A stretch of DNA of 61,235 nucleotides, filler included, from Sphacelaria rigidula (GCA_964200075.2; 9 parts of 9 records of this genome joined end to end with filler, not necessarily neighbours in it); one strand, 5' to 3'; counted from the first letter of the whole stretch, positions 6,717 to 20,446 are shown. Numbers and translations are program-made. The notes: generated from the letters alone by a model not told the origin.

Positions 6717-6816
6717 NNNNNNNNNNNNNNNNNNNNNNNNNNNNNNNNNNNNNNNNNNNNTTAATTAATTAANNNNNNNNNNNNNNNNNNNNNNNNNNNN
6801 NNNNNNNNNNNNNNNN
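6717..6816. other. Artificial 100-bp contig linker (N44-TTAATTAATTAA-N44)
   Basis: Six-frame stop linker; recurs every 6815 bp. Confidence 0.98.
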
Positions 6817-13531: not shown

Positions 13532-13631
13532 NNNNNNNNNNNNNNNNNNNNNNNNNNNNNNNNNNNNNNNNNNNNTTAATTAATTAANNNNNNNNNNNNN
13601 NNNNNNNNNNNNNNNNNNNNNNNNNNNNNNN
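13532..13631. other. Artificial 100-bp contig linker
   Basis: N44-TTAATTAATTAA-N44. Confidence 0.98.
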
Positions 13632-13858
13632 AGGTTTGTTTGTAATGTATTGAAGAAAAATAAGTGCCGCCGGAATGTTGGAGGTATCTCTATGAGGAGT
13701 AGGAACGGTGCTCCGTCTCGAAATGGATGCGTGGTAAATGGCCAAACGACTAAGGCGAGCAACAAATGAGTACGCTTCCCCCTGCCATTCTCGTAGCATA
13801 ACCCGACACGAATCACGTAAGACGAACATAAACACAAAACGACCTACCAGCCCCTCAC

Positions 13859-14241
13859 CTGGTGCGTTGAGTAGTACTCCGCGTGTCCCGCGAAGTCCCA
13901 CATCAACACCTCAAGCGGCTGAGACGGTTTCGGTCTCCACGGCTGGATTTGGACATCTACACCCCTTGTGCGCTCGCTCTCCGCCGTCGGAGCCGGCTCG
14001 CCCCTCCGTAGACCCCTCGCTAGTGTCGTTTTGCCGGCGCATGCCGCACCGACCAACACCATCTTCAAGCCACGAGCGGTGGTCGCCCCCGAGCGTTTCA
14101 GATCCTCGTGATAGCTGACGATTTTCGCCCATCCGCCGTTGACAACCGCAGATGGCGGGTCGATCCAGGCATTGTTGTCCAGATCTACCCTAGCGAGCTT
14201 GGGTAAGCGAGCAAATCTCTCAGCGGTAGCCCTGGGTACAT
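13859..14241 (-). CDS. LRR-ROCO GTPase exon: last LRR plus N-terminal half of the Roc domain
   Basis: Acceptor tcgcacAG (phase 1) and donor CAG|GTGAGG. DVPRATAERFARLPKLARVDLDNNAWIDPP (LRR plus the typical xxPP linker), KMVLVGAACAGKTTL (P-loop), ERTRGVDV (switch I), VLMWDFAGHAEYYSTHQ (switch II). Confidence 0.92.
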
Positions 14242-16157
14242 CTGTGCGAGTTAACACGAGAATCAAGGAGGCGGTAATGACATGTTCAGAGCCAGCCAGA
14301 GGGACTCACATGAACGCTGAGGGCTCATTTACCGCAATAGCAGTGGTCCCAGGAGTAGCCATGAAAACTACCTGTTACGTGCGCCCTGACTACTCACGCG
14401 ATTCGCAACGTATCGATTTTTCAAATGAGTGACGAATAACGCGCACACGAAATCGTATTCCCCCTCGAGCGTAGTTCTCCCTGTCAGTAATCATACACGG
14501 TAGTCACATACAAACGTTGATTACTTCGGTTCCAAACATACTGTAGCAGACTCTCATGTCGAGGAAAGAATCCACACGCCTTTCTACCGTTACCAAAGCA
14601 GTTCAATAAGAAGAGGTTATTACAAACAGCGATTTGATATTCATGCACCGTACTGTGCGGTGAGGGCGATACATGCATCGAAGCAAAAAACGTCGATCAA
14701 CGAAACACATGAAATTGTGAATAATAGAGCGGCACTGTTTTTTATCCGGTCCCAGTAGCACGTCCGCCAAAGGCACACTGATAAAGTCAAAAGAGTGCTG
14801 CCACGATAGGGAGACGGAAGAGGATTTGTGATACATGAGGATATAGCGTTGAGTTGCACACTGGTGACTATTATGTTTTGAAAGGTTCGCAGCACGGCGA
14901 TGTCAGCTGTAGCTGGTGTTTGACCAGTCACCACGGTTCGATCTTTAAGCTCCATGCTACTCGAACCCAAACGAAGGACTCGCGGCAAATCATCCGCGAC
15001 CCACAATCACCGTTCTTCTTGTTTTTGCTCTGTCACTCCTCCCCTCTTTCACCCATCTCACAGGTAATAACTGAAAAATCCGAGCCTGCTACATAGCGAA
15101 AGATGTTGCGATCACACCGCTAAAAGATATGCACCAGCCCATCGATTCAACACTACGCGCTGCTGATCATCTACTGAATGTACACCCTACACGAGAGCAG
15201 GAGGAGACGGACGCTGCGGCTACAGTGTTCTACAATATCACAGACTAGAACACTGGTCAAGCTTTATCTCGCTTCTATAGTGCCCTGTCTTTCTGCTCTA
15301 GTGATGCAGCCAAAGCACAGTCAATTCTCGTTGTCACGGGAATATTGAAGGGGACGTACGAGCTCGACCAGCCATAGAGCTTTCTGTTTTTAGATGACAG
15401 GTGATACCGCTTATTATTACGACTTGGGCGCTGGACGTCCGACACGATAATTTTGTATATTAATACGCGGAACATATTTGAAGCCATGATGGGGAAAAAA
15501 CGTTGGAGCGATTTTCAATCTGAGCAACAGCAAAAAAAAAAAGTCATGAGTTCATAGAAAAAACAAAACCAAAAATGCTTCTACTTCGAGCACGAATTGT
15601 TTTCTTGCGTGCAGAAGATCATCGTAAAGTTTCGGCTTTAAACGTTCAAGTAGGTAGGGCTGTGCGTGCAACTTTGTGTGTGACGCCGCTGCACGTCGGA
15701 GATCCAAGTGATACAGAAGACTCCGATTACTATACGGAGGTTGCGACTTCGACAGCATCTGGCAGAAAATCTTCGTTCGGCATCATCTAATTTCCATCGT
15801 TTATATAATTGTTTATACAGACCATTTTTGTTTCAGTTTCAACAGGTGATTTCCGGCACTTTTGTGGGATATTCTAAAACCGAAAGTGCGCAAAATAACC
15901 CTCCTCGTCTCAGTGTGGGCTGGGCCTTTCACCAAGGCCTATCTAGAGCACTTTCCCGCCTCCCTGGAGGCCCATTTGCTATAAAACCCCACGAGCACCC
16001 TCTTTTTCAGCCGTAAGTAAAACGATCACCGTCGGTGATTGAATCGAGGATAAGCGTTGCAGCCCAGTCCCACTTGGGGAAAAATAGAAGAAGGCAAGAC
16101 ATGCCGCATCGCACCGCAACCGCGCAGCACCGCAGTTGACCTCAACCATAACCCTCG

Positions 16158-17355
16158 CCCTGGGGCTCATCGTTACGCGATTGGAGCCTAACACTACATC
16201 TTGAAGGTCTGTGCAATGACGTGGGGAGCGAGACATTGTGTTCGGTTGATGTACAGACCTGTGACAGAAAAATCGAACATCGTGATACCATGTTCTCGTT
16301 ACGCACGTCCACTTTCACGCGAAATACACAACAACTTCCTGGACATATGAATCCATCATACCTCTCGCTGATCTATCCCTCAACACACGGCACCAACTTC
16401 GACGGTACAACCACTCAAGTACAATCATGCCCTCGCGACGCGTACCGTATCGGCATTCACAGCAACTTGACACTGACTGCCGACCGTGCTACGAGTGTGT
16501 AGTTGCCACCGGAATGTCCGTCATGACTACTCACCGGATAGTTCGTTGTGGCAAAGCCGCAAGTCTGCGAGGCTTTTGAGCTTGCCAAGCGCGGGGGGGA
16601 TAGAGCCTGCTTGTGAGGCGAAGCGCGACGGAGAAAGACATAGCAGTGCAGCACGGTCAATGAAAATGAACACAACATTGCAGTACAGTATATTCCCACG
16701 TACTACGTTGCTTCATACATACGTCTGGTATACTCGTAGAGTGCAATAGGGTAACAAGCACATGTGCCGAATAGCGTTTCCGACGGGGCTCTCCCGATGA
16801 TTGAAGCTCCCTACCAAACTGGCTAGCACACCATGCTCACTTGATGGCGCAACATGGAGTCTAGTCTGCCAAATCGGATGACACCCCCATGCTTACTTGA
16901 CGGCGCAACATTGAGTCTAGTCGCCCCTGCGGTGTGCTATGCAGATATATGGCTGACTCATTTCGTCACGCTTCTAACCTCCACAAGGGACCGTCGCAGG
17001 ATGCAATACTCTCAACAAAACGCTTGATCATAGCATACCAGTAGAGCCGTACGTCTATGACAACCCCGTCGGGACATTCGTGTCGTCCTTCCGCAGACAC
17101 GCCCCAGCGCCATGTCTGAAACTAAATTCAACCTCGCTGAGACGTGTCAGGCCGACTAAACACGATCAAAAATGTTGTCAGAAGCATCGAGCATCCTTCC
17201 GTCCCACCTGCATCGGGCATTTAAAGCAATCGTGCTGAACGTTTCAGCAGTGCAGATAGCATGCTCTTTTTATGACGCGACGTGCACAAAATTATTCGTG
17301 GTTGCGAAAATTCTGCTTTGGGGGGGGTACTGTCTGGCCCCCAAGTGCCTTTACT
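16158..17355. repeat. LRR-exon cassette copy 1 (~1.2-kb direct repeat of 18540-19744)
   Basis: Colinear with copy 2 from ccctggggctcatcgttacgcga to ggcccccaagt..ctttact, with a few short indels. Confidence 0.95.
16535..16606 (-). CDS. 72-nt LRR exon of the ROCO gene
   Basis: cacaagcAG acceptor and G|GTGAGT donor; phase 1-1. (G)SIPPALGKLKSLADLRLCHNELS, a plant-type 24-aa LRR. Joins in frame to the 14241 exon. Confidence 0.92.
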
Positions 17356-18094
17356 ATCGATGCTAGGACTTAGGAGTGTCAAGATAAAATATTACACGAG
17401 AAAGTTCAGAAACATGCCAGAAAACGAAAGTGGCTCAATCGAGCGCTGCATAGCACAGGGGGGGGTGAAAAAATTCCGATCGTTCTTGTGAATAACTTTA
17501 CTGGCCTTCTTCTTATCGTCACCTATTCAGCGCGCTAGAGCCAAAAGGGATTGTATTTTGGACCAAAAATGGTCGATAACACCCCCTCTCAGTTCAACCC
17601 GTCAGCCGCTTAATATTGAGCGCAGAGATTACGTTTGTTTCGGAACGTCGAGCGGATGCCTAGTATTTCCCAACTTCCAAACTGCGGGATAAAGCGTTCA
17701 CTGGGATGTGCGGTGGCACGCGGAAGACTATTGAAAATCGCCGACGGCGAACAAATTACCAAGATCTCCTAGTTCACATGAGAGCTCCTGTAGCACGTTC
17801 CTCACCACTGTTTCTTACCTCGTCGTGGCCAAATCCAAAGTGTCTTCCTCAGCCTTATTGTTGTGATCTGTTGAAAAATACAGGGCTTAAGGATTCAAGC
17901 GCCCGTTTCTTAATGGTGGGCCGGGTCTGCAGTCCAAGATTATTTCCAGCTATTACGTTTCTATGGCGATTTCACCCTGGAAGCTTCTGATGACAGCGCA
18001 AGCAGGGATACATCTCAGTCTCGTCAATGTCAAACATTCGCAATTCGTCCGCAGGCTTTTGTGGTGATGTATCCATCTCAACGGCAGTATGATC

Positions 18095-18465
18095 CACTCA
18101 GTGCCTTAGTTAGTGACTTTAACCTTCTGACGATTGGGACGTAAGCTCGAATCTCGGCGAAGTCACACCACCCATCCGGGATTCTTACTCATTGTGATGC
18201 CCAACAGTTGACAGCGACGTCGTGAGTACACAAAAGTTAGCCTTCACGATCGACGAGGGAACCGGACCGCTACGTCCTTCTCGCGGATGAATAAGGCAAG
18301 CATCGCAGAAGGAACGTGGAGTGTCGAACAAATATAGAACTAAAGAAGCTCGTGCGTAAACCTTCCTCCTGTATGACCCCCGCTGATGTGCCCACATATA
18401 CCGAGAGGATGTAGGTTGACGTCCAGAATAGATGGGGCCACAACACACACGCAGTATGTAAAAAA
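18095..18465 (+). mobile_element. Degenerate tRNA-derived SINE, family B, in the intron between the LRR exons
   Basis: Head ctgacgattgggacgtaagctcgaatctcggcgaagtcac aligns with the B-box head at 27900-27945; body ends in cagtatgtaaaaaa. Boundaries approximate. Confidence 0.55.
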
Positions 18466-18539
18466 CGTGGCCAACAGATGTTTTTTGGCGAGAGTTTTCT
18501 GAGGGGGGGAGGGGGGAGCTAGGGTCAAGGTAACTTTAA

Positions 18540-19744
18540 CCCTGGGGCTCATCGTTACGCGATTCGAGCCTAACACTACATCTTGGAGGTCTCTGCAATG
18601 ACGTGGGGATCGATTGGGCGATTGATTGATTGATTGATTTTTATTTTCTTTAGAGGAGCGAGACATTTTGTTCGGCTGATGTACAGACCCGTGACAGAAA
18701 AATCGAACATCGTGATACCATGTTCTCGTTACGCATGTCCACTTTCACGCGAAATACACAACAACTCCCTGGATACATTAACCCATCATACCTCTCGCTG
18801 CTCTTTCCCTCAACACACGGCACCAACTTCGACGGTACAACTGACGCGTGCCGTGTCGACATTCCCAGCAACTTGACACTGACTGCCGACCGTGCTACGA
18901 GTGCGTAGTTGCCACCGGAATGCCCGTCATCACTACTCACCGGATAGCTTGTTGTTGCCAAGGTTGATGCATTCGAGGCCTTTGAGCCTACCAAGCACGG
19001 GGGGGATAGAGCCTGCTTGTGAGGAGAAGCGCGACGGAGAAAGACATAGCAGTGCAGCACGGTCAATGAACACAACATTGCAGTACAGTATATTCCCACG
19101 TACTACGTTGCTTCATACATACGTCTGGTATACTCGTAGAGTGGAATAGGGTTGTGCCGAATAGCGTTTCCGATGGGGCTCTCCCGATGATTGAAGCTCC
19201 CTGCCAAATTGGTTAGCACACCATGCTCACTCGACGGCGCGGCATGGAGTCCAGTCTGCCAAATCGGATGACACCCCCATGCTTACTTGACGGCGCAACA
19301 TTGAGTCTAGTTGGCCCTGCGGTATGCTATGCAGATATATGGCTGACTCATTCCGTCACGCTTCTAACCTCCAAAGGGGACCGTCGCAGGATGCAATACT
19401 CTCAACCCAACGCTTGCCCACAGCACACCAGTAGAGCCGCACGTCTATGACAACCCCGTCGGGACATTCGTGTCGTCTTTCCACAGACACACCCCAGCGC
19501 CATGTCTGACACTAAATCCAACCCCGCTGAGACGTGTTAGGCCGACTAAACAATATCGAAAAGGTTGTCAGAAGCATCGAGCATCCTTCCGTCCCACCTG
19601 CGTCGGACATGGAAACAATCGTGCTGAACGTTTCAGCAGTGCAGATAGCATGCTCTTTTTATGACGCGGCATGCACAAAATTATTCGTGGTTGCGAAAAT
19701 TCTGCTTTGGGGGGGGTACCGTCTGGCCCCCAAGTAACTTTACT
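18540..19744. repeat. LRR-exon cassette copy 2
   Basis: Direct repeat of 16158-17355; carries an extra (GATT)n-containing insert at ~18609-18655. Confidence 0.95.
18941..19012 (-). CDS. 72-nt LRR exon of the ROCO gene
   Basis: cacaagcAG acceptor and G|GTGAGT donor; phase 1-1. (G)SIPPVLGRLKGLECINLGNNKLS. Confidence 0.92.
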
Positions 19745-20346
19745 GCTTCCACCCTCCTTCGTCGGGAACCAGGTCTTCTTGTTCAAGACACCCTCCCCTG
19801 AAAAAGAAAAGGTTCTTGTTTCGATAGATCAGGGAGAAAAGTATACTGCTGGAAAACAAAAGGTTCTTGTTTCAAGAGATGGGTGAACTTGGGAGCTTTC
19901 ACGGTGCCTTTTAACCACCCCTTTACGTAGGAGCAACCAACAAAAGATGTGCGAGTCTAAGCATGCAGCGAGAGAACACATCAGCGCGCAAACAGTAAAG
20001 CTGTCGTGTCTGCAGGGAGTAATGCACACAACGAACACCACTGCGGAGGCGGACAACGATGTATCCATTTTGCTCCACATCCGGACTCAACAGCAAGCAA
20101 GACACGGCAGCAGTGCACCTTCGCATGCAGAACCAACATACACCACCTACCTGGTACATCTTGAATACGTTAATGGTCAAATGCATCGCAAAATATGTCT
20201 CGAGAAATACTCAAACCCTCTACCGCATGAACACTACTGAAACTACGCTGGGTGTGCATGCAGCATGCAGAGAGTACGCAATGCCTGCTTGTATATCGAA
20301 CCCTCACGAGCACACGAAAATGACGTCGCACTGGGTAGCACTATCT

Positions 20347-20446
20347 NNNNNNNNNNNNNNNNNNNNNNNNNNNNNNNNNNNNNNNNNNNNTTAATTAATT
20401 AANNNNNNNNNNNNNNNNNNNNNNNNNNNNNNNNNNNNNNNNNNNN
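20347..20446. other. Artificial 100-bp contig linker
   Basis: N44-TTAATTAATTAA-N44. Confidence 0.98.

What the first reader, a model, noticed from the sequence alone, without database searches (positions are those of the whole stretch)
13859..19744. ROCO LRR-GTPase built from duplicated 1.2-kb single-LRR cassettes whose exons are far more diverged than their introns
Seen in sequence: two direct-repeat cassettes (16158-17355, 18540-19744) each hold one 72-nt, phase 1-1 exon on the minus strand, GSIPPALGKLKSLADLRLCHNELS and GSIPPVLGRLKGLECINLGNNKLS. Both splice in frame onto the LRR+Roc exon (14241-13859). By hand count the exons differ at 16 of 72 nt and 10 of 24 aa, with only one purely synonymous codon change. 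Seven of the aa changes fall in the xxLxLxxNx face (ADLRLCHNE vs ECINLGNNK). The ~140 nt of intron upstream of each acceptor differ by only 2 substitutions and one 6-bp indel. Established: Ectocarpus ROCO genes encode each LRR on a 72-nt exon and show exon shuffling and positive selection (Zambounis et al. 2012, Mol Biol Evol), so the system is known in kind. Inference: this is a recent duplication showing strong diversifying selection, or a targeted diversification/gene-conversion mechanism, acting on the ligand-binding face of a candidate immune receptor.
Basis: partly seen in the sequence, partly recalled or inferred. Interest (0 to 1): 0.85.

Follow-up and report, generated by a model that had tools for sequence, protein, structure and literature searches.

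The report
Hypervariable patch in duplicated algal LRR exons
A brown-alga candidate immune-receptor gene carries two young copies of a one-repeat exon cassette whose introns are still about 94% alike, while a 26-base stretch coding for the likely binding face has been almost completely rewritten; the gene family and its fast-changing repeats are already known.

Summary
On the minus strand, two 1.2-kb cassettes (16149-17355, 18531-19744) each carry one 72-nt, phase 1-1 type I LRR exon (16535-16606, 18941-19012). Both splice onto an LRR+Roc exon (13859-14241). The exons differ at 16/72 nt, the aligned introns at 71/1094 (Fisher p=3e-5). The excess sits in one patch: 12 differences in 26 nt (no permutation of 20,000 reached 12).

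Two RNA-like runs hold contigs that end exactly at 14241 and cover both exons, so the exons are spliced.

The system is the known brown-algal LRR-ROCO family. The nearest protein is from Sphacelaria (87%), not Ectocarpus (about 50-57%).

The selection reading is only partly supported. Pairwise dN/dS is 1.9 and not significant (p=0.53). The 5' half of the exon diverges at the intron rate. The 3' patch is as unlike as unrelated repeats, has ts:tv 4:8 against 49:22 in introns, and contains multi-hit codons.

I favour a short, exon-confined templated exchange (sub-exon "exon shuffling"), retained by selection, at about 0.45. Point-mutation selection alone is about 0.3. No donor could be sought because no genome is held. 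This is a new member of a known kind, of moderate interest.

The parts
13859..14241 (-). Exon coding for the last (irregular) LRR, a linker and the N-terminal half of the Roc GTPase (P-loop GAACAGKT, DFAGH). Acceptor at 14241, donor after 13859. The gene runs on beyond the end of this piece of the window (13632).
   Evidence: Pfam Roc E=2.2e-7, 31.6 bits against a cut-off of 27. 87% identical over 68 aa to a Sphacelaria rigidula protein. About 49-57% identical over 127-132 aa to Ectocarpus and Laminaria LRR-ROCO proteins. RNA-like contigs end at 14241 (records 18, 25), and contigs of expressed paralogues end at 13859 (records 15, 16, 23).
16535..16606 (-). LRR exon A: 72 nt, phase 1-1, GSIPPALGKLKSLADLRLCHNELS.
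   Evidence: Sequence and splice sites AAGCAG|...|GTGAGT. The depth of the RNA-like runs at 16553 equals that of the contigs that end at 14241 (tables 4 and 8).
18941..19012 (-). LRR exon B: 72 nt, phase 1-1, GSIPPVLGRLKGLECINLGNNKLS.
   Evidence: Pfam LRR_4 E=0.0044, below the cut-off. The bin depths of the RNA-like runs fit cover of this exon (table 2).
16149..17355 (-). Cassette A: 749 nt of intron, exon A, then 386 nt of intron.
18531..19744 (-). Cassette B: intron, exon B, intron. Collinear with cassette A, with 5 indel events.
16542..16567 (-). Hypervariable patch in exon A (codons 14-22, ADLRLCHNE). Its counterpart in exon B is 18948-18973 (ECINLGNNK). 12 of 26 nt differ.
   Evidence: 0 of 20,000 permutations reach 12.
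18948..18973 (-). Hypervariable patch in exon B.
16607..16812 (-). Best-conserved part of the intron, next to the acceptor. It holds an identical run of 118 nt and 3-4 differences in 200 nt, and includes the pyrimidine-rich acceptor region. The counterpart in B lies upstream of 19013.
   Evidence: No stable RNA fold on either strand (z +1.1 and +2.2).
17356..18530 (.). Spacer between the cassettes. It is unrelated to the flanks of A or B. Most of it is dispersed repeat DNA, with a single-copy core at 17888-18111.
   Evidence: no alignment. table 2: depth 4,000-144,000 against about 64 for single-copy contigs in X1, and 64 at 17888-18111.

Best explanation
This is a fragment of a brown-algal LRR-Roc (ROCO) candidate receptor gene on the minus strand.

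Proposed history:
1. An intron-exon-intron unit of about 1.2 kb holding one type I LRR exon was duplicated within the gene. The neutral distance between the copies is about 6.5-7%. Repeat DNA now lies between them.
2. Afterwards, the part of one exon that codes for the concave, presumably ligand-binding strand was overwritten by a short templated exchange with another type I LRR exon. The patch is 26 nt, or at most about 50 nt. In effect this is gene conversion, or 'exon shuffling' on a sub-exon scale.
3. Such an exchange is confined to the exon because LRR exons of different cassettes share only their conserved ends (GSIPP... and ...N.LS plus the splice sites), not their introns.
4. The new variant was probably kept by diversifying selection.

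What is shown and what is inferred:
- Shown: the anatomy, the localised excess of differences, and the splicing of both exons.
- Inferred: the order of events, the templated origin of the patch, and the receptor function.
For: 1. The excess is a patch, not exon-wide. Exon nt 1-38 have 4 differences, all transitions, which fits the intron rate (P=0.23). Nt 39-72 have 12 (P=8e-7). The 12 lie within 26 nt, and no permutation of 20,000 reached 12.
2. The patch is saturated. In 84 within-protein pairs of LRRs from 10 other brown-algal ROCO proteins, the last 11 residues share 4.6 on average. A and B share 4, the scaffold positions only. In the first 13 residues A and B share 10, a level reached by only 4.8% of those pairs. 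So the exon looks half recent and half unrelated.
3. The substitution spectrum in the 3' half is 4 ts: 8 tv, the ratio expected of unrelated sequence. The introns give 49:22 (Fisher p=0.024).
4. Multi-hit codons: CGG/AAC differs at 3 of 3 positions. GAC/TGC and GAA/AAG differ at two. The scaffold Leu16 is replaced by Ile through two changes (TTG/ATC), which requires a Met or Phe intermediate.
5. Point mutation alone would need dN of about 1.04 in the six variable codons against 0.068 in the introns, a ratio of about 15 by my division. Zambounis et al. report a mean ω of 5.9 for selected sites.
6. pS is about equal to pN in those codons (0.53 against 0.56).
7. Recombination between type I LRR exons within and between genes is documented in Ectocarpus ROCO loci (PMC3341825, section 15).
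8. A further cassette-like contig lies on exon A with a compensating insertion and deletion at 16553/16560, inside the same patch. It is not B (table 4). So the patch also differs in a third copy.
Against: - No donor exon was found, and none could be sought. No genome is held, and the window contains no other LRR exon.
- The scaffold codons L13, L18, N21, L23 and S24 are identical at every synonymous site (0 differences in about 5.3 synonymous sites). That is less expected if the patch came from a distant exon.
- A tract of 26-50 nt is at the short end of known conversion tracts (recalled).
- The changed residues include exactly the published positively selected positions 15, 17, 19 and 20, and dN exceeds dS in direction (1.92). 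Selection on new point mutations predicts the same positions.
- With saturation allowed for, the ts:tv argument favours an unrelated origin only about 3-fold (my own calculation, run in no call).
- Only two sequences could be compared, so the polarity of change is unknown.
Confidence: 0.45

Rival explanations
1. Point-mutation diversifying selection. After the duplication, new amino-acid changes on the concave face were fixed one by one at a very high rate, while the introns drifted neutrally.
For: - 13.3 nonsynonymous against 2.7 synonymous differences, dN/dS 1.92.
- All six variable positions of LxxLxLxxNxL differ, including positions 15, 17, 19 and 20. These were found under positive selection in Ectocarpus and, as 14, 16, 18 and 19 of a 23-aa numbering, in Saccharina.
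- Scaffold codons are untouched at synonymous sites.
- Exon against intron: p=3e-5.
Against: - dN/dS is not significant (p=0.53).
- pS is about equal to pN in the variable codons.
- It needs a rate about 15 times the intron rate in six codons.
- One codon is changed at all three positions, and three at two.
- Leu16 to Ile takes two steps.
- ts:tv is 4:8 against 49:22.
- The 5' half of the exon, which also holds variable positions, shows no excess.
Confidence: 0.3
2. The exons are old and the introns were homogenised. A and B would be long-diverged repeats whose flanking introns have been kept alike by repeated A-B gene conversion. Conversions that would erase the difference in the binding face are removed by selection.
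For: - The 200 nt next to the acceptor are less diverged (4/200) than the rest of the introns (67/894; p=0.002). This could be a later conversion tract that stops at the exon.
- The 3' half of the exon is as unlike as unrelated repeats.
- Contigs of a roughly 86-90% paralogous locus carry B's upstream flank and A's downstream flank (records 7 and 13).
Against: - Divergence is alike on the two sides of the exon (6.1% and 7.2%), as expected of one duplication.
- The first 13 residues and the rare CTA Leu codon are shared.
- It needs two independent tracts that both end inside a 72-nt exon.
- The cold window is only borderline after correction for scanning (p=0.056). Constraint on splicing signals would explain it as well.
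- The single-copy core of the spacer (17888-18111, depth 64) suggests the paralogue lacks the A-spacer-B arrangement.
Confidence: 0.12
3. A dedicated or targeted diversifying process acts on LRR exons, either in the germ line or the soma. It would be hypermutation or copy-choice assembly of the kind proposed by Zambounis et al. for 'adaptive immunity'.
For: - The rewritten patch has sharp limits inside otherwise conserved DNA.
- A third copy is also divergent in the same patch.
- The hypothesis is raised in the literature (PMC3341825, sections 27-28).
Against: - Nothing here distinguishes a dedicated process from ordinary ectopic recombination plus selection.
- The exact-match DNA contigs listed for two studies (X1, X3) fit the window with 0-4 differences, and the RNA-like contigs (records 18, 25) fit it with 0 over 13974-14241. 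Contigs do, however, drop rare variants.
- Teng et al. note that no somatic recombinants or recombinase have been reported.
Confidence: 0.08
4. Artefact: a mis-assembled or collapsed repeat, or unused pseudo-exons.
For: The window is a composite of 6.7-kb pieces, and the gene is cut at both ends.
Against: - Logan contigs of two studies bridge from A's 5' end through the spacer into B. X1 record 6 covers 17301-18720 with 0 differences. X3 record 14 covers 17301-18835 with 4 differences.
- RNA-like contigs cover both exons and the Roc exon.
Confidence: 0.02

Closest known systems
Ectocarpus LRR-ROCO genes with type I LRR exons (Zambounis et al. 2012, PMC3341825; abstract, sections 12, 15, 22, 25, 27 and passages read)
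   Same: [quoted passage not shown]
- Each LRR sits on a 72-nt exon of form GxxPxxLxxxxxLxxLxLxxNxLx.
- Recent duplication and recombination within the LRR region.
- Variable positions 15, 17, 19 and 20 on the concave face.
   Different: - A different lineage: 87% identity to a Sphacelaria rigidula protein against about 50-57% to Ectocarpus.
- No intronic or opposite-strand LRR relics in this 6.7-kb piece.
- That paper does not use the term 'gene conversion' (0 occurrences), and none of the intron passages shown by that search compares intron with exon divergence of duplicated cassettes. Here that contrast is measured and the excess maps to a 26-nt patch.
ROCO genes of four brown algae (Teng et al. 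2024, PMC11378527; abstract, sections 11, 15 and passages read)
   Same: 72-bp LRR exons, positive selection at four concave-face sites, and spliced use of the exons.
   Different: That study covers Ectocarpus, Saccharina japonica, Cladosiphon and Nemacystus only. It favours alternative splicing as the source of diversity. Whether exons A and B are alternatively used could not be tested here.
Tetrahymena LRR genes with 90-bp exons (PMC6564038; passages read)
   Same: One repeat per exon in symmetric phase, intragenic exon+intron repeat units, and near-identical exons shared between genes, which the authors attribute to ectopic recombination or gene conversion.
   Different: Ciliate genes with 90-bp exons and possible involvement of a retrotransposon. 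The signal reported there is identical exons in unlike genes. Here it is unlike exon cores in alike introns.
Lamprey VLR assembly, chicken Ig gene conversion and MHC micro-conversion (recalled; VLR is also named in PMC3341825 section 28)
   Same: Short templated patches copied between LRR or variable-region modules using short homologies.
   Different: Those are somatic, enzyme-driven processes (VLR, Ig) or allelic/paralogous events in vertebrates. Nothing here shows a somatic process or a dedicated enzyme.
'Accelerated evolution' of exons relative to introns in venom PLA2 and conotoxin genes, and intron homogenisation at MHC loci (recalled, checked in no call)
   Same: Duplicated genes whose introns are more alike than their exons.
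   Different: In those cases the excess spreads over whole mature-peptide exons of separate genes. Here it is a 26-nt patch in an intragenic duplicate.

Membership tests
ROCO GTPases | Roc (Ras of complex) GTPase domain | tested here: met
   Pfam PF08477 Roc, E=2.2e-7, 31.6 bits against a cut-off of 27, profile positions 1-74 of 119 (the exon ends there). P-loop GAACAGKT and DFAGH are present.
ROCO GTPases | COR domain directly after Roc | tested here: inconclusive
   The gene is cut at 13632, so the region is not in the window. Pfam finds no COR at E<=1 in the closest full relatives, P0003 and the Ectocarpus protein P0010, which its source names 'LRR-GTPase of the ROCO family'. Teng et al. 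note that InterProScan also misses COR in brown algae. Membership rests on homology to named ROCO proteins.
Brown-algal LRR-ROCO | LRR array N-terminal of Roc, joined by a linker | tested here: met
   Exons B and A and the LRR at the start of the Roc exon join in frame. The same order is seen in P0001 and P0002.
Type I LRR exon (Zambounis) | 72-nt exon coding for 24 aa of form GxxPxxLxxxxxLxxLxLxxNxLx, with symmetric phase so that exons can be added or dropped | tested here: met
   Both exons are 72 nt, phase 1-1, fit the motif (B has Ile at position 16), and have AG/GT sites.
Type I LRR exon (Zambounis) | Use in spliced mRNA | tested here: met
   
- Contigs of two RNA-like runs (record 18: 557 nt, depth 15.2; record 25: 585 nt, depth 19.1) match 13974-14241 with 0 differences and stop at 14241, with 289 and 317 letters left over.
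- The depth at 16553 is 15.2 and 19.1.
- The bin depths equal contig depth times the exon letters in the bin. For example, X6 gives 0.61, 4.2, 4.6 and 0.41 for 9, 62, 68 and 6 letters.
- The joints themselves are not among the 15 rows printed (102 rows not shown).
ROCO 'exon shuffling' locus | Intronic LRR relics, or LRR exons on the non-coding strand | tested here: not met
   Six-frame motif scan of 13632-20346: the GxIPxxL motif occurs only at the two exons, apart from one isolated GPVPSSI at 18268 without an LRR core beside it. The loose LRR-core pattern gave 38 further scattered matches that I did not read as LRR exons. tblastn with exon A finds only A and B. There are no inverted copies. 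Only 6.7 kb of the gene is visible.
Diversifying selection on LRR face | dN/dS significantly above 1 | tested here: inconclusive
   The Nei-Gojobori ratio is 1.92, Fisher p=0.53. Measured against the intron rate the exon excess is significant (P=1.2e-5), but it is confined to a saturated patch.
Somatic receptor diversification (VLR/VDJ-like) | Variant exon sequences within one individual | not testable with these tools
   Only Logan contigs were available, and these drop rare variants.

The most novel reading that the evidence does not exclude
Brown-algal LRR receptor genes would possess a process that rewrites only the roughly 26-nt concave-face segment of a 72-nt LRR exon, leaving the surrounding introns intact. 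It would copy short patches from a reservoir of other LRR exons, anchored on the conserved exon ends. This would be a germ-line (or even somatic) counterpart of lamprey VLR copy-choice or Ig gene conversion, and the long-sought mechanism behind 'exon shuffling' in these genes.
Probability: 0.15. Interest if true: 0.85.

Novelty: new member of a known kind. Interest (0 to 1): 0.45.

Why it matters
Brown algae have no NLR or TLR repertoire of the plant or animal type. [quoted passage not shown] The candidates are selection on point mutations, exon shuffling, alternative splicing and somatic recombination.

This locus is a clean natural experiment. It offers a young intragenic duplicate with its own neutral yardstick (1.1 kb of aligned intron), and the change maps to a 26-nt patch coding for the binding face.

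With a whole genome in hand, a single search for the donor of that patch would decide between templated exchange and stepwise selection. It would also show whether sub-exon patches are general in the family. The locus also extends the one-LRR-per-72-nt-exon architecture, with transcript support, to a Sphacelaria-like lineage outside the four species analysed so far.

Tried and rejected
- **Whole genome:** none is held.
- **Other cassettes in public DNA:** an exact 24-nt intron pattern gave 0 matches in metagenome contigs. The search for related loci with a Roc alignment gave 594 pattern matches, none confirmed.
- **Cassette ORFs in the protein collection:** an 81-aa frame across exon A shared words with 1 candidate and gave no hit.
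- **Proteins of the likely source genus:** 6 Sphacelaria rigidula models were found (P0003-P0008). None contains an LRR by my motif scan, so no same-species LRR repertoire could be built.
- **Other content of the piece:**
  - No tRNA.
  - No Rfam match at E<=0.1.
  - No Pfam family in 10 other ORFs.
  - One chance-level inverted repeat.
- **Conserved intron as a structured RNA or miRNA precursor:** the folds are no better than shuffles (z +1.1 and +2.2).
- **Cassette as a transposable element:** rejected. Depth over the cassettes is only about 2-4 times single copy, there are no terminal inverted repeats, and no coding capacity.
- **Sequencing runs:** no RNA holder is listed. X6 and X7 are marked 'RNA?' by guess. 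In them, 10 and 9 of the 30 bins, all intronic, have no cover. I treat that only as consistent with cDNA.
- **Limits:**
  - The splice joints 14241/16535 and 16606/18941 are not among the printed rows of table 5.
  - The 660 unprinted rows of 'other letters' could not be seen, so polymorphism in the exons between the two DNA studies could not be judged.
- **Not possible or not seen:**
  - Supplementary tables of PMC3341825 and PMC11378527 (exon lists, PAML tables) were not opened. They may hold exon-level data that bear on scaffold codon conservation.

Full report
**Setting.** The window is a composite of nine pieces of about 6,715 nt, joined by N44-TTAATTAATTAA-N44 linkers. The finding lies wholly in the piece 13632-20346, so the gene is cut at both ends. 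Everything beyond the window therefore comes from protein searches, the literature and one laying of public runs.

**Anatomy (minus strand).** The repeat finder gives six collinear repeat pieces joining 16149-17355 to 18531-19744 at 89-99% identity. blastn of cassette A against the window finds only A and B.

Each cassette holds one 72-nt exon (A 16535-16606, B 18941-19012) between AAGCAG| and |GTGAGT. With the G carried over from the upstream exon they read GSIPPALGKLKSLADLRLCHNELS and GSIPPVLGRLKGLECINLGNNKLS. This is the published type I LRR exon form, GxxPxxLxxxxxLxxLxLxxNxLx.

The next exon (14241-13859) continues in frame with an irregular last LRR, a linker and the first half of a Roc GTPase. 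Pfam Roc scores E=2.2e-7 at 31.6 bits against a cut-off of 27.

A six-frame motif scan of the piece finds the GxIPxxL signature only at the two exons, apart from one isolated GPVPSSI at 18268. The loose core pattern gave 38 other scattered matches that I did not read as LRR exons.

The 1.2 kb between the cassettes aligns to nothing near A or B. By depth in the DNA runs it is mostly dispersed repeat, at 4,000-144,000 against about 64 for exact single-copy contigs, with a single-copy core at 17888-18111. The 2.4-kb period is therefore two 1.2-kb units separated by unrelated DNA.

**Whose gene.**
- The Roc exon is 87% identical (59/68) to a Sphacelaria rigidula protein.
- It is 49-57% identical over 127-132 aa to LRR-ROCO proteins of Ectocarpus species and Laminaria. 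One of these is named 'LRR-GTPase of the ROCO family' by its source.
- COR could not be tested. The region lies outside the piece, and Pfam misses COR even in the full relatives, as Teng et al. also report.

So this is a brown-algal LRR-ROCO gene, nearer to Sphacelaria than to Ectocarpus. That lineage is outside the four species analysed in PMC11378527.

**The observation, measured.**

| Region (A against B, MAFFT) | Differences |
|---|---|
| Upstream intron | 45/732 |
| Exon | 16/72 |
| Downstream intron | 26/362 |
| All intron | 71/1094 (6.5%), plus 5 indel events |

- Exon against intron: Fisher p=3.2e-5. No 72-nt window outside the exon exceeds 9 differences.
- The excess is not spread over the exon. 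Differences lie at exon positions 16, 23, 25 and 33 (four transitions) and at twelve positions between 40 and 65.
- The first 38 nt fit the intron rate (P=0.23). The last 34 do not (P=8e-7).
- As a scan statistic, 12 differences in 26 nt (16567-16542) was reached by none of 20,000 column permutations. The best 26-nt window with the exon masked has 6.
- The introns as a whole are 6.5% diverged, not nearly identical.
- The 200 nt next to the acceptor are colder (4/200 against 67/894, p=0.002). After allowing for the scan this is borderline (p=0.056). That stretch folds no better than shuffles on either strand.

**Are the exons used?** No run is on record as RNA. Two runs guessed to be RNA (X6, X7; one study) hold contigs that behave as spliced cDNA:
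- Record 18 (557 nt, depth 15.2) and record 25 (585 nt, depth 19.1) match 13974-14241 without a difference. They stop exactly at the acceptor, with 289 and 317 letters left over.
- The depth at 16553, inside exon A, is 15.2 and 19.1 in these runs (table 4).
- The four bins that hold the exons have just the depth expected if those contigs cover only the exons. X6 gives 0.61, 4.2, 4.6 and 0.41 for 9, 62, 68 and 6 letters. X7 gives 0.77, 5.28, 5.79 and 0.51.
- After subtracting the two exons, 145 and 173 letters remain that lie on nothing in this piece. This is consistent with further upstream exons beyond 20346.
- The joints themselves are not among the printed rows of table 5, so the splice is inferred from these figures.
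- Contigs of expressed paralogues stop at 13859, the donor of the Roc exon (records 15, 16, 23).

The A-spacer-B arrangement is bridged by contigs of two studies. X1 record 6 covers 17301-18720 with 0 differences. X3 record 14 covers 17301-18835 with 4 differences. One of these runs may be the window's own source.

**Selection or exchange?** The standard pairwise test does not show selection. Nei-Gojobori gives Sd 2.67 over 18.7 sites and Nd 13.33 over 53.3, dN/dS 1.92, Fisher p=0.53. In the six variable codons pS is 0.53 and pN 0.56.

Against the intron as neutral yardstick (JC 0.068), dN is 0.30 for the exon and 1.04 for the six variable codons. These are ratios of about 4.5 and 15 by my division. 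Zambounis et al. report a mean ω of 5.9 for selected sites in ROCO LRRs.

The patch has features of sequence that is not homologous by recent descent:
- ts:tv is 4:8 against 49:22 in the introns (p=0.024).
- One codon is changed at all three positions, and three codons at two.
- The scaffold Leu16 is replaced by Ile through two changes.

Compared with 40 LRRs from 10 other brown-algal ROCO proteins (84 within-protein pairs; 8 of the 18 proteins fetched had no repeat by my motif), A and B are unusually alike in their first 13 residues. They share 10, a level that only 4.8% of pairs reach. In the last 11 residues they are exactly as unlike as unrelated repeats: 4 shared, mean 4.6.

The exon therefore looks like a mosaic of a recently shared 5' half and a foreign 3' core. 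LRR exons of different cassettes share only their conserved ends and not their introns. An ectopic exchange between them must therefore stay inside the exon, which would explain why the flanking introns are untouched.

Evidence on the other side:
- The changed residues include exactly the published selected positions 15, 17, 19 and 20.
- The scaffold codons L13, L18, N21, L23 and S24 show no synonymous difference.
- The tract would be very short.
- No donor could be sought.
- Allowing for saturation, my hand calculation leaves the ts:tv argument only about 3-fold in favour of an unrelated origin.

**More copies.** Depth over the cassettes in X1 is about 120-260 against 64 for single-copy contigs, so this is a small family and not a transposon. 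Contigs 86-90% alike cover B's upstream flank (record 7), A's downstream flank (record 13) and the intron and exon towards Roc (records 3, 4). This indicates a paralogous ROCO locus.

One cassette-like contig lies on exon A with a compensating insertion and deletion at 16553/16560, inside the patch. If it were B, the inserted letter would be A rather than G, and the gapped form would gain only one match. So a third copy also differs in the same patch. Its sequence could not be read.

**Ranking.**

| Explanation | Confidence |
|---|---|
| Duplication followed by an exon-confined templated exchange, kept by selection | 0.45 |
| Point-mutation diversifying selection alone | 0.30 |
| Old exons with homogenised introns | 0.12 |
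| A dedicated or somatic diversifier | 0.08 |
| Artefact | 0.02 |

The first two are not exclusive. Exchange would supply the variant and selection would keep it.

**Known or new.** The following are all in print: one LRR per 72-nt exon, exon shuffling, selection on the concave face, alternative splicing and the somatic-recombination hypothesis (PMC3341825, PMC11378527). Ectopic exchange between single-repeat LRR exons is also proposed for Tetrahymena (PMC6564038).

My four literature searches and the passages read turned up no measurement of exon against intron divergence in duplicated ROCO cassettes, and no sub-exon patch. 'Gene conversion' does not occur in the 2012 paper. The supplements were not opened.

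I file this as a new member of a known kind with an informative detail, at interest 0.45. If the patch proves to be the footprint of a patch-copying process general to these genes, it would be far more interesting (probability about 0.15).

Noticed in passing
whole window; N runs at 6717-6816, 13532-13631, 20347-20446 and every 6,815 nt after: The window is nine pieces of about 6,715 nt joined by N44-TTAATTAATTAA-N44 linkers. GC falls from 0.51 to 0.47 along the pieces. Neighbouring pieces need not be contiguous in the genome.
   Followed up: partly
13674-13782: A repeat of about 110 nt with summed contig depth in the millions, against about 64 for single-copy contigs. It is present in the RNA-like runs too. 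In other copies it is flanked by long C runs (tables 2, 5c, 7). No Rfam or tRNA match.
   Followed up: no
17440-17887 and 18112-18559: The spacer between the cassettes is made of dispersed repeats (depth about 4,000-144,000 in X1), including a C-rich stretch near 18500. No ORF with a Pfam family.
   Followed up: partly
14014-15374, 15958-16496, 19452-19901: Contigs 86-90% alike (records 3, 4, 7, 13) indicate a paralogous ROCO locus. It shares B's upstream flank and A's downstream flank. Several diverged Roc-exon contigs in the RNA-like runs show that paralogues are expressed.
   Followed up: partly
19279-19456 (counterpart in A about 16889-17066): RNA-like contigs (records 22 and 30; 31-32 differences in about 175 nt) match part of the cassette's upstream intron. 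A relative of this intron segment is therefore transcribed somewhere.
   Followed up: no
about 19200-19310 and about 16810-16920: By eye, each cassette intron holds two adjacent copies of about 55 nt (ACT.GACTC.ATG..GCGCC.TC.AGT.AGCATGG...TTTGG.AG).
   Followed up: no
19727-19740, 18525-18540, 17340-17352: By eye, a short direct repeat (TAAAGTTAC, or TAAAGGCAC at A) lies at the 5' start of both cassettes and again at the 3' end of B. It may be the microhomology of the duplication, or a target-site duplication of the spacer insertion.
   Followed up: no
16413-16436; 18600-18650: The cassettes differ by larger indels. A has 24 extra nt downstream of the exon. B has about 48 extra nt that include a (CAAT)n-like run.
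   Followed up: no
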